Assembly (NCBI GenBank): GCA_036785375.1
Contig: JAWMAR010000864.1
Coordinates: 434,001-498,000, forward strand
DNA: 64,000 nt
Source: Leucoraja ocellata
Taxonomy: Eukaryota
Reading direction: 5' to 3'
In this document: positions 1 to 63,000 of the stretch, piece after piece
Numbering within the stretch: position 1 is the stretch's first letter
Layout: the number at the start of each line of letters is the position of its first letter
Program-made: the position numbers

Positions 1-3000
1 CATTTCTAAATCAAAATTTTATTCGTGAACAAAAGACAAAGCATAATTTCCTGCGTTTCAACTGTTAATCCGGCAGAATATGGGTGGTGGAAGTGTCATA
101 AATGCAGTGAATAACCAAAGATTCCTGAAACAATTAAATGGAAACCCAAACTCACCCGTGACGATGGGCTGCACAGTGTAACCTGGAAGCAAAGAAAGAA
201 ACATAGGTAGTTTACAACCAACAGTATGAACTTTGAATTTTCCTATTTTAGGTAACTTCTAACAAAGCCCCCCCCCCCCCCCTTCTGTGCACCACCTGGA
301 TTCACACGTATTTCACCCCTCCTGTAAGTGAGGATGCCTTAGAATCATAGAGGCATACTGCGTGGGAAAAGGCCCTTCAGCCCCATTTGACCACACCAGC
401 CAACGTCCTAGCTAAATAGTCCCACCTGCCTATGTTTGATCCATACACCTCCAAACCAGTCCTATCGATGTACCTGTCGAACTTTGCGATAGTCCCTGCC
501 TCAACAACCTCTCCTGGCAGCTCGTTCCATACACTCACCACCCTTTGTATGAAAATTTGACCCCTCAGATTCCTATTAAATGTTTGCACCTTAAACCCAT
601 GTCCTCTGGTCCTCTATTCCCTTTCTCTGCACAAGAGACTCTGTGCATCTAACCAATCTATTCCTCTCATGATTTTCTACACCTCAATCAGATCACCCTC
701 ATCCTCTTGTGCTCCAAGGAATAGAGACCCAGCCTGCTCAAACTCTCCCTATAGCTCAGATCCTCGAATACTGGCAACATCCTTGTAATTATTCTCTGTA
801 CCCATTCCAGCTTGACAACATCTTTCCTATAACATGGTGAACATAATACCCTTAATGCGGCCTCACCAGCATCTTATATAACTCTAGCATGACCTCCCAA
901 CATCTATACTCGATACACTGCTGAAGTCCAATGTGCCAAAAGCCTTTTTGACCACCCTATCTACATGTGGCTCCTCCTTCATGGAATTATGTACCTGTAC
1001 TCCTAGATCCCCCTGGTCTATAACACTCCCAAGGGCCCTACCATTCACTGTGTAGGTCCTGCCCATGTTTGACTTTCCAAAATGTAACACCTCACACCTT
1101 GGTTCCATCAACCATTCCTCAGCCAACTTGGCCAGCTGATCAAGATCCTGCTGTAAGTTAGCACATTTTCACTACCTGCAATACCATCTGAAAACTTGTT
1201 AATCTTCCCATGTACATTGTCACCCAAATCATTTATATGGATGACAAACAGTAACAGGCCCAGCAGCAAACCCTGAGGCACATCACTGGTCACAGGCATC
1301 CATTCTAAGAAGCAACCTTCCACCATCACCCTTTGCTTCTTTCCATAAAGCCAATTTTCTATCCATTCAGCTACCTCTCCTTGGATCCCGTGCGATCTGA
1401 CCTTCCAAGGCAGCCTACCATGCAGAACCTTGTAGAATGCTTTGCTGAAGTCTATTTATACACATCTATAACTGTGCCCTCATCAACCCTTTTGGTCACA
1501 TCTTCAAAATCTCAATCGGATTCATGAGGCACAAAGTCCCATAAACAAAACCATGCTGACTTTCCCTAATCAGCCATTGCCCAACTAAATACATGTATAT
1601 TGTATCCCTCAGAATACTCTTCAGTAAATTTCCAACTACATGTGTTAAGCTCACAGGCCTATAGTCCCTGCCTTTGCTCTGCAGCCCTTTTTGAATCACG
1701 GATAGATCTGATCAGGCCCAGAAGATTTGACTGCCTTCATACACGATAATACCTTCAGCACTTCTTCAACTGCAATATTAACTTTAATGAATGACTTTAA
1801 GATTTGCTTTCCCAAAGTCCATCGGATATCATACCTGGTCGTACCGGATCTGAATATGTAATTACCAAACAATTTGACCCCAGGTCGACACCTACAATAT
1901 GTTGCGTGAATAACAATATGTACAGAAACACTGTGGAATATTTTGATAAGTACCGTCTACATAGAGGCTGTAGCGTTGCAGCGCGTATGGACCCAGTGAG
2001 GAACTGTTAATGGTCTTCTCTATAAATACATCGTAAACATCTTCACGGCTGATGGGTTCCATGGTGGACACGTTTTGGAATGAACAATTAGCTGTCACTC
2101 GGGTGCTGTGAACCATTACCTCACTGCAAAAACAGCAAAAGACATTTGTAGTAAGTGGAAACGAATTTGGTGCAAAGTTGTTTGCAGTGTTCGCAAGAGA
2201 ACAGCTGAAAATTTTCCGTGGCTGATTACAAGAGGAGAAGCAATGGTCAGAGATATCTAAATTTGTCCGTCTCCGCCACATCAGCTCCTCTAATGAGTCA
2301 TCCCATTTTAGGGCATCAGAGATGTCCACTTTCTTGATAAATGTGTATTAGCCTTGCTTGATTAAATGGGTCACTCCTCCACGTCATCTTCTAGATCTGT
2401 TCTCACATCACCCTCACCCAGATGACACAAGGACAGAGTTCATATCGTCCCTTGCTTTCACCACACCTCGTCCAGGTTTCTCACCCCTACTGCAATTTGT
2501 CTGAAAAGGGCCCGATCCAAAACTTTGTCTAGTCATTTGCTGTCTGTCCCGTTGAGATACTCCAGTATATTATGGGGTTTTTTTCTGATAGCATTTATAT
2601 TAACTTTGCATTGAAATGTGTGGGAAATTTGCTTATGAGACTTTTGGGTTTGCAACTTGGAAGCAGAGCATGAACAATTGGAAGTTAGACAAAAATGCTG
2701 GAGGATCTCAGCGGGTGAGGCAGCATCTATGGAGAGAAGGAATAGGCAACGTTTCGGGTTGAGACAAAGGAATTTTGCGTAGCATAATAGAAAAGTTACT
2801 CTAGTTACCTGAATGATTCCACAACACACTTTAATAATGTTGCATTGATACTGCTGTTATTGAACAGGTCCGTGAGCTGTGGGCATTAAGAAAAATTGTG
2901 TCAGAATGAGAGGTGAAAAAGGAAGGATGAAGTCATATATCAGCAGGGAAGTATCTTGTACAAATCTCTCACCTCAGCTGCAATCATGGTTGCTGTATCT

Positions 3001-60000: not shown

Positions 60001-63000
60001 TTCATAAACCACTTCTCGCTTGATGGGTTCCATGGTGGACACATTTTGGAATGAACAATCAACTGTAACTCTGGTGCTCTGGTGCGTTACCTCTCTGCAA
60101 AAAAGCAAAAGACATTTTTAAATGAATTGAGTGCAAAGTAGTTGCAATGTGAGAAAGACCACACCTGAAACGTTGCTGTGGCTGATTGGCTTCTCTTGCA
60201 TCCCCCTCACACACGCTGACCAAGGATAGAGTTCCCCTCATTCTTGTATTTCACACACCAGTCTCTAAACCCATCTCCTGTATTTGGTGCTCTAGATGTG
60301 GTCTCTTTTACATCGGCAAGTCCAAGAATCTTCTATGTGACAGTTTTTTTACGAACAGGTGCAGGGTCGACCAAGGTCTGCTGGATTTCCCGGTTGCAGA
60401 ACATTTTAACTCCCCTTCCCATTCCCATAACGACGTGTCTGTGTCGAGCCTCATCGATAGCCAGAGGGGTAACACATTTAAGCTGGAGGAAAAGCACCTC
60501 ATAATTAGATGTAGACACAAAATGCTGGACTGACTCAGCGGGTGTGGCAGTATCTCTGGAGAGAAGGAATGGGTGACATTTTGGGTTGAGACGCTTCGAA
60601 GGGTTTCGGCACTGAAACGTCACCCATTCCATCTCTCTAGAGATGTTGCCACACCTGCTGCGTTACTCCAGCATTTTGTGTCTACCTTCGATTTTACCAG
60701 CATCTGTAGTTCTTTGTTACTTATAATCTGATGTGTAGGTTTGGAGCCTAACAATATGAATAATTCGACGTGACAACCTACAAAGTAACTATATGAACAA
60801 TGAATTGTTCAATTTAACGTTTCAACCTACAAATCCCTCCCCCCCCCCCATCCCCCAATTTCCCCCTACGCTTCCCTGTGCTACAGCTGAATGTGCACCC
60901 ATTTTCCATTTCCCCTCCATCCCTCCCCATTCCACTTTGCTTCCTCTGGCTTCATTATAATTTTGACTTCTCAGCCTAACTCCTTAAATTGAACCTTTTG
61001 TCTTTTCATCTCAGGATTTTCAGCAAGCATTTGCCAATCAACTGCTCCCCCCCCCCCTCACTTGTATCCTATCACTTGCCACACTTTGTCATCTCCTTCC
61101 CACCTCTCTTGCAGCTTTCTCACCCCTACTGCAATCAGTCTGAAGAAGGGCCCGACCCAAAACTCTGCCAACCCATGTTCTCCAGATTTGCCGACTGACC
61201 CGCTGAGATACTCAGCACATCGGGTCCTTTTGTATTAGAATTTATATTGACTTTGCACTGATATTTGTAGGAAATGTGTTCATGAGATTATCATCTTCAC
61301 CATTTGGAATCACTGTACATTAACAATTTGGAGACAAAGGAATGCAATTTTCATGATTTAATCAGAAAGTTATTGTAAGTTACCTGAATGATTTCACGTC
61401 ACATTTTAAGAATGTTGCATTAATCTTGCTGTTCTCAAACACGTCTGTGAGCTGGGGGCAAGAAAAATGGTGTTAGAATGAGACATAAAAAAGGAGATTA
61501 ATAAGTAGTATATCAGCAGAAAACTAATTGGTAAACTCTCTCACCTTATTTGCAAGCATGGTTGCTGTTTCAAAAGGTTTTGCTTGAATTTCTTCAATAG
61601 ACAGTTTGTCAACAATGAAAGTCACGTTGTATTTAATGTGTTTTGTTACCTCGATTGGAACTGGAACTGTGGAAATAGAGTAAGCAATTTAGCATGTTGT
61701 GAGTACCAAGATTTTCAAATAGTTTAAAAACTGTTTCCCAGGACTGGATTTCTACAGAGTTTAAGCAACAGATGGAGAAAAACAAATGTAGCGTAAGACA
61801 ATTATTTTGTGCATTTGATACAAACTCACCATTGACATTGTGCTGTGCATTGAAATCTGAAAACAAACAGAGAAATAAAGGTTGAACTTTAAATGTTCAA
61901 GTTTAGGCAACCTTTAAAAACCCACCAACCACAACAACAACTGGGCATGCACCTAGTAAACTCCTCCCCCTTGCCCTCCATCTACATTCCTTTTTCTGGC
62001 TTCAAATTTGCAACTCTTCAATCCTTTCCCCTCACACTTTATGTTTTTTCGTCTCTACCATTTGTCCAACCTTCTCCGTATCCAAACTCTACTTCACCTG
62101 TGTCCACCTATTAACTGAAGTGCTTTGTACTGCCTCCCTTCTCTTACAGCTTTCTTCTCCCCCCCACCACCTCACAATCAGTCTGAAGAAGGATCTCAAG
62201 CTGAAATGCCACCCAAAGCCCATCTGACATCATACCTGATCCTTCCGGATCTGAATATGTAATTACCAGAGGACTTGACTCCGTCAACAACTACAGTATA
62301 TAGCGTGAAGTTGAATACATAGAAAAAGATTGAGGATTATTTTGATAAGTACCTTCTACATAGAGGCTGTCACTTTGCAATGGGAATTGCCCCAGTGCGG
62401 TAACGTTATGGGTCTTCACTCTAATTACTTCATAAACCACTTCTCGCTTGATGGGTTCCATGGTGGACACATTTTGGAATGAACAATCAGCTGTAACTCT
62501 GGTGCTCTGGTGCGTTACCTCTCTGCAAAAAAGCAAAAGACATTTATAAAAAGAATTGAGTGCAAAGTAGTTGCAATGTGAGAAAGACCACACCTGAAAC
62601 GTTGCTGTGGCTGATTGGCTTCTCTTGCATACTCCTCACCCCCGCTGACCAAGGATAGAGTTCCCCTCATTCTTGGATTTCACACACCAGTCTCTAAACC
62701 CATCTCCTGTATCTGGTGCTCTTGATGTGGTCTCCTTTACAACAGCAAGTCCAAACATCGTCTAGGTGATAGTTTTATTTTCGAACAGGTGCAGGGTCGA
62801 CCAAGGTCTGCTAGATTTCCCGGTTGCAAAACATTTTAATTCCCCTTCCCATTCCCATAACGACGTGTCTGTGTCGAGCCTCATCGATAGACAGAGGGGA
62901 AGCACATTTAAGCTGGAGGAAAAGCACCTCACAATTAGATGTAGACACAAAATGCTGGAATAATGCCCCTGTCCCACTTAAGATACTACCTCACCCGCTG

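What the first reader, a model, noticed from the sequence alone, without database searches (positions are those of the whole stretch)
1835..62522. MUC16/CA125-type tandem SEA array (at least 26 domains) in an apparent cartilaginous fish
Seen: 26 spliced repeats with MUC16-style motifs, including the Cys loop and LGPY.L..NSLYV[D/N]. Known: long tandem SEA arrays of this subtype are best characterised in mammalian MUC16. Inference: this is either an ancient gnathostome MUC16 orthologue or an independent expansion of a MUC16-type SEA. The near-identity of the central units shows the current array is a recent lineage-specific amplification.
Basis: partly seen in the sequence, partly recalled or inferred. 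Interest (0 to 1): 0.75.

Follow-up and report, generated by a model that had tools for sequence, protein, structure and literature searches.

The report
Skate MUC16-like tandem SEA-domain array
The window is the inside of one very long skate gene related to the human CA125 protein MUC16, built from at least 26 nearly identical copies of one protein module; public annotation already names this gene, so it is real but largely ordinary.

Summary
The minus strand carries 25 complete SEA-domain units and one unit cut by the window end. Each unit has four exons of 116, 68, 170 and 27 nt, which is 381 nt or 127 aa. One extra 51-nt linker exon is present. All 103 exons are open, have no indels and are flanked by AG/GT.

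Exon 3 alone, and RefSeq models sharing identical exons, match only MUC16 SEA domains among solved structures. The nearest proteins are "mucin-16-like" models of the skates Leucoraja erinacea and Amblyraja radiata. Those models are fragments of this gene and do not contain its 18 middle units.

The C-terminal SEA, membrane span and tail are conserved from skates to mammals. The repeated units cluster by lineage. So the gene is ancient and the array is homogenised within skates.

The central 16 units are 98.7% identical in exons and 96.2% in introns, with pN/pS 0.24.

It differs from mammalian MUC16 in having short linkers that are not Pro/Thr/Ser-rich, and six N-glycosylation sequons per central unit. 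Expression was not tested. The novelty is low.

The parts
61830..62522 (-). Unit 0 (partial): exon 3 at 62353-62522 and linker exon 4 at 61830-61856. Its exons 1 and 2 lie beyond 64000.
   Evidence: Positions 63223-64000 match the exon2-exon3 intron of other units at about 85%.
59185..61660 (-). Unit 1: e1 61545-61660, e2 61384-61451, e3 59925-60094, e4 59185-59211
   Evidence: e2 is 22/22 and e3 56/56 identical to RefSeq model P0004.
57116..59045 (-). Unit 2: e1 58930-59045, e2 58770-58837, e3 57462-57631, e4 57116-57142 (GYTVQPIVI type)
   Evidence: e1 is 38/38 and e3 56/56 identical to P0004.
53391..56679 (-). Unit 3: e1 56564-56679, e2 55238-55305, e3 54145-54314, e4 53391-53417. A 1163-bp insertion lies in intron 1 (55322-56484).
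50712..53251 (-). Unit 4: e1 53136-53251, e2 52976-53043, e3 51053-51222, e4 50712-50738. Near-copy of unit 2.
   Evidence: Against unit 2: exons 99%, introns 96%.
48139..50275 (-). Unit 5: e1 50160-50275, e2 49994-50061, e3 48889-49058, e4 48139-48165. Near-copy of unit 3.
46129..47969 (-). Unit 6 (first central unit): e1 47854-47969, e2 47694-47761, e3 46394-46563, e4 46129-46155
   Evidence: It shares the 238-bp short intron 3 and a 248-bp insert with unit 16.
43893..45958 (-). Unit 7: e1 45843-45958, e2 45683-45750, e3 44631-44800, e4 43893-43919
41652..43723 (-). Unit 8: e1 43608-43723, e2 43448-43515, e3 42396-42565, e4 41652-41678
39411..41482 (-). Unit 9: e1 41367-41482, e2 41207-41274, e3 40155-40324, e4 39411-39437
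36930..39241 (-). Unit 10: e1 39126-39241, e2 38966-39033, e3 37677-37846, e4 36930-36956
34437..36760 (-). Unit 11: e1 36645-36760, e2 36485-36552, e3 35184-35353, e4 34437-34463
32200..34267 (-). Unit 12: e1 34152-34267, e2 33992-34059, e3 32939-33108, e4 32200-32226
   Evidence: Introns are 99.5% identical to unit 19.
29954..32030 (-). Unit 13: e1 31915-32030, e2 31755-31822, e3 30700-30869, e4 29954-29980
27722..29784 (-). Unit 14: e1 29669-29784, e2 29509-29576, e3 28458-28627, e4 27722-27748
24686..27553 (-). Unit 15: e1 27438-27553, e2 27278-27345, e3 25431-25600, e4 24686-24712. A 796-bp insertion lies in intron 2.
22676..24516 (-). Unit 16: e1 24401-24516, e2 24241-24308, e3 22941-23110, e4 22676-22702
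20426..22505 (-). Unit 17: e1 22390-22505, e2 22230-22297, e3 21172-21341, e4 20426-20452
18182..20256 (-). Unit 18: e1 20141-20256, e2 19981-20048, e3 18928-19097, e4 18182-18208
15946..18012 (-). Unit 19: e1 17897-18012, e2 17737-17804, e3 16684-16853, e4 15946-15972
13711..15776 (-). Unit 20: e1 15661-15776, e2 15501-15568, e3 14449-14618, e4 13711-13737
11468..13541 (-). Unit 21 (last central unit): e1 13426-13541, e2 13266-13333, e3 12214-12383, e4 11468-11494
9176..11298 (-). Unit 22 (reference unit, read base by base): e1 11183-11298, e2 11020-11087, e3 9920-10089, e4 9176-9202
   Evidence: It carries the other exon-2 haplotype.
6533..9006 (-). Unit 23: e1 8891-9006, e2 8728-8795, e3 7626-7795, e4 6533-6559. 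A 345-bp insertion lies in intron 3.
3676..6363 (-). Unit 24: e1 6248-6363, e2 6085-6152, e3 4971-5140, e4 4216-4242, plus an extra 51-nt linker exon e5 at 3676-3726
   Evidence: e3 is 56/56 identical to RefSeq model P0001, which also contains the e5 peptide.
156..3088 (-). Unit 25: e1 2973-3088, e2 2809-2876, e3 1954-2123, e4 156-182 (GYTVQPIVT type). The gene continues below coordinate 1.
   Evidence: e1 is 37/38 and e3 53/56 identical to P0001.
266..1711 (-). Retroelement debris inside intron 3 of unit 25. It is not part of the gene's coding sequence.
   Evidence: The ORF at 1108-1455(-) matches Pfam RVT_1 at 29.5 bits (cut-off 29.6), E 7.5e-7. The segment is insertion-like.

Best explanation
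The window is an internal stretch of one very long minus-strand gene of a skate (Rajidae; Leucoraja erinacea or a close relative). The gene is a homologue, most likely a co-orthologue, of vertebrate MUC16.

Shown:
- The window holds 25 complete units and 1 partial unit, each about 2.2 kb long.
- Each unit encodes one SEA domain in three exons plus a 9-residue linker exon.
- Unit boundaries are in phase 1. Gain, loss or skipping of whole units therefore keeps the reading frame.
- The domain is the non-cleaving MUC16 subtype. It has a conserved Cys pair where other SEA domains carry the G/SVVV self-cleavage site, and a C-terminal LGPY...SLYV motif.

Inferred from the shared insertions, the mosaic segments and the two-unit and longer-range near-copies:
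- The array grows, shrinks and is homogenised by unequal crossing-over and gene conversion between units.
- Purifying selection keeps the exons intact.

Inferred from family knowledge and from the skate RefSeq models that continue the gene:
- The product is a type I membrane glycoprotein.
- Its long string of heavily N-glycosylated SEA beads stands out from epithelial surfaces as a protective, non-adhesive glycocalyx.
- It can be shed by cleavage in or near the last, membrane-proximal SEA domain, which does carry a G-S-V-K-V site.
For: Anatomy: 103 of 103 exons are open, free of indels and flanked by AG/GT. A unit is 381 nt.

Constraint:
- In the 16 central units, exons are 98.65% identical and introns 96.2%.
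- Pooled pN/pS over the central units is 0.24.

Family:
- PDB sequence hits are MUC16 only. MUC16 is favoured by more than 10 orders of magnitude over the next SEA class.
- Both Cys residues align with the human MUC16 Cys pair.
- An AlphaFold model of P0004 shows beta-alpha-beta-beta-alpha-beta in each unit. Domain pLDDT is about 70-80 and the mean is 65.5.
- The top 5 Foldseek PDB hits for that model are all MUC16 SEA structures, TM 0.53-0.75 on the target.

Same gene as the public models:
- P0004 matches units 1-5 and P0001 matches units 24-25. Several exons are 38/38 or 56/56 identical.
- P0001's later units are nearest to P0003's first units.
- P0003 ends in a membrane span and tail.

Ancient gene:
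- 27 of the 28 proteins found with the C-terminal part carry a source name that is either mucin-16(-like) (22) or SEA domain-containing / hypothetical protein (5). The 28th (P0026) comes from an unnamed source and was not used. The named hits come from sharks, rays, bichir, coelacanth, frog, snake, birds and mammals.
- The tail motif G-x-Y-[FYL]-[PS]-H is shared.
- The last SEA domains form one clade with support 99.

Exchange between units:
- The intron1-exon2-intron2 segment exists in two forms that are 72-81% alike. These sit inside units that are otherwise 96-99% alike.
- A 248-bp insert sits at the same site in units 6, 10, 11 and 16.
- Near-copies occur at offsets of 1, 2, 7 and 10 units.

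Glycosylation: each central unit has 6 N-x-S/T sequons.
Against: No transcript or protein evidence was available, so splicing, expression and the one-gene reading are not shown.

Exons 1 and 2 alone give no SEA hit, and exon 3 alone is below Pfam's cut-off. The above-threshold SEA call rests on public models, not on the window's own joined exons, which I did not build.

dN/dS between the divergent unit types is high, at 0.35-1.9. Exon 1 pooled is 1.18. Constraint on the outer units is therefore weak or diversifying.

The unit linkers are not Pro/Thr/Ser-rich: S+T+P is 22-26% of about 20 residues. The window shows no mucin domain proper.

The FastTree tree has no outgroup from other SEA classes. 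It does not resolve whether the two elasmobranch paralogues arose before or after the split from bony vertebrates.

Identity to the L. erinacea models over the positionally matched exons is about 97% (561 of 579 residues, summed). The species is therefore not settled.
Confidence: 0.85

Rival explanations
1. This is an independent, convergent expansion of some other SEA-domain gene in skates, and it only resembles MUC16.
For: The units cluster by lineage rather than by position. The linkers lack the Pro/Thr/Ser richness of mammalian MUC16. The period is 127 aa rather than 156 aa (PMC4046138 passages). No synteny could be checked.
Against: Only MUC16 SEA chains are found in the PDB at significant E-values. 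The Cys pair and the C-terminal motif are shared. The continuing models end in a membrane span and tail whose motif is kept up to mammals. The last SEA domains of all taxa form one clade, support 99.
Confidence: 0.07
2. The array, or its 16-18 near-identical central units, is not expressed as protein. It would then be a decaying duplicate block or an assembly artefact, and the RefSeq models are right to stop at its edges.
For: Neither the proteins of 2000 aa or less nor the library of representatives contains the central-type exon 3 at more than 84% identity (P0001 and P0004 at 84% by BLASTP; 80% for P0001). Some unit pairs are nearly identical, for example 12 and 19 with introns 99.5% alike. 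There are no expression data.
Against: All 64 exons of the 16 central units keep an open frame, their length and their AG/GT sites. pN/pS is 0.24 and exons are more alike than introns. The units differ by insertions and 0.5-5% intron divergence, which an assembly duplication would not produce. P0004 and P0001 end or begin in ways typical of truncated models, by intron read-through and an internal Met.
Confidence: 0.08
3. The window holds parts of several separate adjacent 'mucin-16-like' genes, as annotated, rather than one giant gene.
For: RefSeq lists separate models (P0004, P0001, P0003).
Against: Within 64 kb there is no unit without phase-compatible neighbours. I recognised no terminal exon, membrane span or signal-peptide exon, and ORFs outside the repeat exons are retroelement debris. 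The models begin at internal Met residues inside exons and end by reading into introns.
Confidence: 0.1

Closest known systems
Mammalian MUC16 (CA125) tandem-repeat region
   Same: It is a tandem array of SEA domains of one subtype. It has two conserved Cys residues enclosing a loop of about 20 residues and a C-terminal LGPY..D.NSLYV motif. These SEA domains are non-cleaving. Sequence and fold matches are best, and almost exclusive, to human and mouse MUC16 SEA structures. The continuing skate models share a type I membrane span and a short tail with a shared motif.
   Different: The unit is 127 aa (129 with the upstream acceptor) against 156 aa (PMC4046138, passages). The linker is about 20 residues with S+T+P 22-26%, not a Pro/Ser/Thr-rich linker (PMC10829539 abstract and passages). 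There are six N-glycan sequons per central unit. This window alone holds at least 26 units against 19 repeats in the revised human model (PMC10829539). There are four exons per unit. Five per human repeat is my recollection and was not checked in any call.
RefSeq 'mucin-16-like' models of Leucoraja erinacea (P0004, P0001, P0003) and Amblyraja radiata (P0002)
   Same: This is the same gene or its orthologue. Exons of units 1-5 and 24-25 are 91-100% identical to P0004 and P0001, several of them fully identical. The linker exons are the same, including the 17-residue extra one. Pfam SEA is well above the cut-off.
   Different: The models are fragments. P0004 stops by intron read-through after the unit-5-type exon 3, and P0001 starts inside exon 1 of unit 24. 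The 18 units between them (6-23) are in none of the four proteins found (best 84%). The window has two copies of the two-unit block where P0004 has one.
Stingray and devil-ray 'mucin-16-like' arrays (Hemitrygon akajei P0008, Mobula hypostoma P0015) and the unnamed 3694-aa protein P0031
   Same: They share the 127-aa period, the short linkers and the type-A tail. P0031 has 28 full SEA domains.
   Different: Identity to the window's exons is only about 60%. Their units form separate clades from the skate units.
Single-SEA membrane proteins (MUC1, MUC3/12/13/17, type II transmembrane proteases, agrin, enteropeptidase)
   Same: They share the SEA alpha/beta fold and a location next to the membrane in surface glycoproteins.
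   Different: They have one SEA domain rather than an array, and many self-cleave at G/SVVV. The window's units have no G-S at that place: 0 of 25 exon 2, and the one G-S among 26 exon 3 copies lies in the LG.Y motif. Sequence similarity is far weaker (2e7v_A at E 0.0027 against 1e-16 for MUC16). Which proteins carry G/SVVV is from my own knowledge.

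Membership tests
SEA domain (Pfam PF01390) | Sequence match to the family profile above its curated cut-off | tested here: inconclusive
   With window sequence exon by exon: exon 3 scored 18.1 and 15.8 bits in 2 of 4 copies tried, both below the 26.4 cut-off. Exon 1 (2 copies tried) and exon 2 (2 copies tried) gave no SEA hit. Public models with identical exons pass: P0004 75.4 bits over 3 stretches and P0001 137.7 bits over 7 stretches.
SEA domain (Pfam PF01390) | Alpha/beta sandwich fold (beta-alpha-beta-beta-alpha-beta) | tested here: met
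   The AlphaFold model of P0004 shows this order in each of 3 units, at moderate confidence. The top 5 Foldseek PDB hits are SEA structures, rmsd 2.6-4.3 A over about 120 columns. This was tested on the RefSeq model, not on a protein joined from the window.
SEA domain, self-cleaving subclass | G/S-V-V-V type site between strands 2 and 3 | tested here: not met
   There is no G-S in 25 of 25 exon 2 copies or at the loop in 26 of 26 exon 3 copies. The site is present only in the last SEA domain of P0002 and P0003, outside the window.
MUC16 / CA125 | Many SEA domains in tandem (in PMC1552070, the only mucin known with multiple SEA domains) | tested here: met
   25 complete units plus 1 partial unit in the window.
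MUC16 / CA125 | Two conserved Cys residues enclosing a loop of about 21 residues in each repeat (PMC4046138) | tested here: met
   Cys at exon-2 position 17 in 25 of 25 copies and at exon-3 position 13 in 26 of 26, with 18 residues between them. Both align with the human Cys pair in the P0004 alignment. Disulfide formation itself was not tested.
MUC16 / CA125 | Closest sequence relatives among SEA classes are MUC16 SEA domains | tested here: met
   against solved structures only. No tree with agrin, IMPG or UMODL1 could be built.
MUC16 / CA125 | Pro/Thr/Ser-rich O-glycosylated linkers between SEA domains | tested here: not met
   The linker before strand 1 is about 20-22 residues with S+T+P 22-26% in the skate models. 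The figure is 42-48% in the two mammalian models and 39-44% in type-B sharks. Pro is 4.1% of the window's in-frame residues.
MUC16 / CA125 | Very large N-terminal mucin (PTS) domain and signal peptide | not testable with these tools
   This part would lie upstream of 64000. None of the skate models found reaches it.
MUC16 / CA125 | Type I membrane span and short cytoplasmic tail after a last SEA domain | tested here: inconclusive
   It is not in the window. It is present in P0003 (L. erinacea) and P0002, whose first units match the end of P0001. Physical continuity with the window is not shown.
MUC16 / CA125 | Orthologous chromosomal position (synteny) | not testable with these tools
   The window holds no other gene, and no eukaryotic genome collection was on hand.

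The most novel reading that the evidence does not exclude
The skate locus is one giant gene with about 40 or more SEA domains, a co-orthologue of MUC16, and its repeat array carries no mucin-type linkers at all. If so, the ancestral jawed-vertebrate MUC16 was a poly-SEA, N-glycan-coated surface rod. The O-glycosylated linkers and the 156-aa CA125-type repeat would be later additions on the tetrapod or mammalian line, and teleosts would have lost the gene. Each lineage would keep re-making its array by unequal exchange, which would explain why copy number and unit sequence differ even between close relatives and why gene models break there.
Probability: 0.3. Interest if true: 0.5.

Novelty: already known. 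Interest (0 to 1): 0.3.

Why it matters
MUC16 is the source of the CA125 ovarian-cancer marker, and its origin is poorly described in print.

What the papers I could read say:
- MUC16 was found in chicken but not in pufferfish (PMC1552070, passages).
- MUC16 was not detected in carp (PMC11414713, passages).
- I found no paper on a cartilaginous-fish MUC16.

Public annotation, however, already names mucin-16-like genes in at least 13 cartilaginous-fish species. The presence of the gene is therefore no discovery.

The window adds three things:
- An exon-level picture of how such an array is built: four phase-matched exons per unit.
- Evidence of how the array is kept uniform.
- Evidence that the current skate gene models are fragments that skip the middle of the array.

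It also shows a MUC16-type array without mucin linkers. This bears on what the repeats do apart from carrying O-glycans.

Tried and rejected
- Tandem Repeats Finder gave no rows, because the 2.2-kb period exceeds its 500-base limit. I used k-mer spacing and blastn instead.
- Rfam gave no match in the window.
- I first took an ORF at 10486-10623(-) for the missing middle exon. Reading the DNA showed the real 68-nt exon 2 at 11020-11087, with proper splice sites.
- Pfam on exon 1 and exon 2 alone gave no SEA hit. The weak PapD_C and TarS_C1 matches are below their cut-offs and I take them for chance. The extra Pfam rows for P0001-P0004 (HNOB, Dynein_AAA_lid and others) have 0 stretches passing on their own and are repeat-inflated noise.
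- I looked for exons 1 and 2 of the top unit in 62636-64000 and found none. The homology to intron 2 places them beyond the window.
- The all-length library search with the central exon 3 gave 106 proteins at E <= 0.001. None had central-type identity: the best were P0001 at 80% and P0031 at 60% over 28 stretches. Members hidden inside 50% clusters cannot be excluded, so I do not claim the central units are absent from every public protein.
- A tree against agrin, IMPG and UMODL1 SEA domains was not made.
- The first shark and skate literature query was too loose and returned only palaeontology and anatomy papers.
- PMC5326570 (SEA domain survey) is not held.
All searches with window sequence were exon by exon.
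- Not searched: the metagenome and viral contig collections (closed); the prokaryote genome collection and the phage, plasmid and E. coli collections (irrelevant to a vertebrate gene).
- Supplementary tables were closed. Table S4 of PMC11414713 (mucin copy numbers across vertebrates) and the supplements of PMC10829539 may bear on the distribution and repeat structure of MUC16.

Full report
**What is there**

The window has no N and about 40% G+C. Sixteen-mers recur mainly at a spacing of about 2.2 kb. Stop-to-stop ORFs on the minus strand showed two recurring peptides. Reading one unit base by base gave the true structure.

- Exon 1 is 116 nt, exon 2 is 68 nt and exon 3 is 170 nt. Each has a polypyrimidine tract and AG upstream and GT downstream.
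- blastn of these three exons against the window found 25, 25 and 26 copies. All were ungapped and full length, apart from end mismatches.
- All 76 copies are open, in the same phase, and flanked by AG/GT.
- Each of the 26 inter-unit introns also holds a 27-nt exon in phase 1-1. It reads DFN.QHN.N in 23 of them and GYTVQPIV[IT] in 3.
- One extra 51-nt phase 1-1 exon lies at 3676-3726.
- A unit is therefore 381 nt, or 127 aa. In 13 of 25 units a second AG six bases upstream of exon 1 would add two residues. The RefSeq models use that site.
- Coding sequence makes up 15.3% of the window.

Every search with window sequence was made exon by exon.

**Extent**

- Upstream of it, 63223-64000 is homologous to the exon2-exon3 intron of other units. 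No exon 1 or exon 2 is present there. That unit's first exons therefore lie beyond the window.
- At the other end, the last linker exon is at 156-182 and the model P0001 continues with further units.
- The window is therefore wholly inside the array.

**What family**

- Exon 3 alone gives Pfam SEA at 18.1 bits, below the 26.4-bit cut-off. Exons 1 and 2 give nothing.
- Against all solved structures, exon 3 hits only three chains, all human MUC16.
- A profile of 14 of the 26 exon-3 copies (the distinct variants) hits four MUC16 chains. The only other hits are two chance AF-10 matches at E 0.2.

A word-indexed search with exon 3 among longer proteins found four proteins. All are named mucin-16-like: three from Leucoraja erinacea and one from Amblyraja radiata. 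Exon-by-exon comparison shows the following.

- P0004 covers the window's top units, and P0001 covers units 24-25.
- Several exons are 38/38, 22/22 or 56/56 identical.
- Over the positionally matched exons the identity sums to 561 of 579 residues.
- The organism is therefore a skate, L. erinacea or a close relative.

These public models pass Pfam SEA easily, from 75 to 340 bits with 3-10 stretches. Further tests on them point the same way.

- P0004 hits four of four MUC16 chains in the PDB, with both Cys residues aligned.
- P0002 scores 1e-16 to 1e-13 on MUC16 and 0.0027 on the next class, a membrane-protease SEA.
- An AlphaFold model of P0004 has mean pLDDT 65.5, domains at about 70-80 and linkers below 50. 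It shows beta-alpha-beta-beta-alpha-beta in every unit.
- The five best Foldseek matches for that model in the PDB are all MUC16 SEA structures.

**One gene, badly modelled**

- P0004 ends by reading into the intron after a unit-5-type exon 3. P0001 begins at a Met inside exon 1 of unit 24.
- The 18 units between them (6-23) reach at most 84% identity to any of the four proteins.
- In a scan of 1.84 billion representatives of all lengths, the best identity was 80%. Members hidden in clusters cannot be excluded.
- P0001's later units are nearest to P0003's first units.
- P0003 and P0002 run on through more diverged SEA domains. They reach a last SEA domain with a G-S-V-K-V site, a membrane span and a short tail.
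- I read the three L. erinacea models as pieces of one gene, in the order P0004, central array, P0001, P0003 along the minus strand. This is inferred, not shown.

**Age of the gene**

- The C-terminal 532 residues of P0002 find 28 proteins. Of these, 22 are named mucin-16 or mucin-16-like and five are named SEA domain-containing or hypothetical. One (P0026) is from an unnamed source and was not used.
- The named hits come from at least 13 cartilaginous-fish species, bichir, coelacanth, a frog, a viper, two birds and two mammals.
- Their ends share the membrane span and a tail motif G-x-Y-[FYL]-[PS]-H.
- Elasmobranchs show two tail types, hence two paralogues.

I cut 267 SEA domains out of 25 of these proteins with a profile and built a FastTree tree. 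I left out P0026 and several redundant models, and no outgroup class was available.

- The last, membrane-proximal domains of all taxa form one clade (support 99).
- The batoid 127-aa units form one clade (support 100).
- Within that clade, the skate units, including those identical to the window's, form a skate-only clade (support 99).
- Tetrapod repeat units likewise cluster by lineage.

The gene architecture is therefore old, and the repeated part is re-made or homogenised within lineages.

**How the array behaves**

- Units 6-21 are 98.65% identical in exons (range 97.9-100) and 96.2% in introns (range 95.0-99.5).
- Pooled pN/pS among them is 0.24. This is the best evidence here that they are translated.
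- Between the divergent unit types, dN/dS is 0.35-1.9.
- Units are mosaics. The intron1-exon2-intron2 segment occurs in two forms only 72-81% alike, set in otherwise 96-99% identical surroundings.
- Units 2 and 4, and units 3 and 5, form a two-unit higher-order repeat of about 6.4 kb. Units 6 and 16 share a short intron and a 248-bp insert that is also in units 10 and 11. Units 12 and 19 are 99.5% alike in introns.
- These patterns are what unequal crossing-over and gene conversion produce. The mechanism is inferred.

**Differences from mammalian MUC16**

- Human repeats are 156 aa with Cys at positions 59 and 79 (PMC4046138, passages).
- The revised human model has 19 repeats, each a SEA domain plus a Pro/Ser/Thr-rich linker (PMC10829539, abstract and passages).
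- Here the unit is 127 aa, and 18 residues separate the two Cys.
- The linker is about 20 residues with S+T+P 22-26%.
- Each central unit has six N-x-S/T sequons.
- Five exons per human repeat is my recollection only.

**Literature**

- PMC1552070 (passages) reports chicken Muc16 and none in pufferfish.
- PMC11414713 (passages) reports none in carp.
- PMC4948705 (passages) treats gel-forming mucins in the ghost shark, not MUC16.
- PMC9564314 (passages) added nothing on MUC16 origin.
- Searches listed no paper on a cartilaginous-fish MUC16. Only 4 papers hold the phrase "mucin-16-like", and none concerns elasmobranchs.
- Supplements were closed.

**Verdict**

The observation and the interpretation stand. 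The thing is a real, intact, probably expressed MUC16-type SEA array. Automatic annotation already names it in this or a sister species, so I rate it as already known, with modest interest. That interest lies in the exon-level architecture, the linkers that are not mucin-like, and the evidence that the public models are fragments.

Noticed in passing
window 266-1711 (-), 7071-7421 (+): There are reverse-transcriptase-like ORF fragments of a LINE-type retroelement inside introns. The ORF at 1108-1455(-) matches Pfam RVT_1 at 29.5 bits, just under the 29.6 cut-off. The neighbouring fragments gave no Pfam hit.
   Followed up: partly
window 47050-47297, 38331-38570, 35841-36088, 23597-23844; inverted copy in 26179-26422: A 248-bp element sits at the same site in intron 2 of units 6, 10, 11 and 16 (95-98% alike). 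It also occurs inverted within a 796-bp insertion of unit 15. It marks shared descent of those units. Its nature is unknown, and there is no Rfam match in the window.
   Followed up: partly
window, intron1-exon2-intron2 of all units (e.g. 11020-11182 against 36485-36644): Two old haplotypes of the exon-2 segment are only 72-81% alike. They are distributed among units that are otherwise 96-99% identical. Units 3, 5 and 22-24 carry one form and the rest carry the other.
   Followed up: partly
window, 12 bases upstream of each exon 1: In 13 of 25 units there are two AG acceptors six bases apart (cacag/ttccag), which would add or drop two residues. In 10 units the upstream AG is mutated to AC.
   Followed up: no
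window 56564-56679 and 50160-50275 (exon 1 of units 3 and 5): Exon 1 of these units is only 83-84% identical to that of unit 22, while the adjoining introns are 94-97% identical. Pooled pN/pS for exon 1 across unit types is 1.18. This points to possible diversifying change, or to conversion from a unit type outside the window.
   Followed up: no
window 48824-49075 (-) and the end of RefSeq model P0004: P0004's last 22 residues are the translation of the intron that follows exon 3 of unit 5, so the model is truncated by read-through. P0004 also has one copy of the two-unit block where the window has two. This is either a copy-number difference or a modelling gap.
   Followed up: partly
proteins P0005-P0025: Elasmobranchs carry two mucin-16-like paralogues with distinct cytoplasmic tails, one ending ...YYSHLDGK and the other ...YFPHQKFY. 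Both types are seen in Stegostoma tigrinum and Mobula hypostoma. The tree does not resolve when they split.
   Followed up: partly
window 62815-63240 (both strands): Long ORFs on both strands show mirrored peptides, which suggests an inverted-repeat insertion in the intron above the top exon 3. There is no Pfam match.
   Followed up: no
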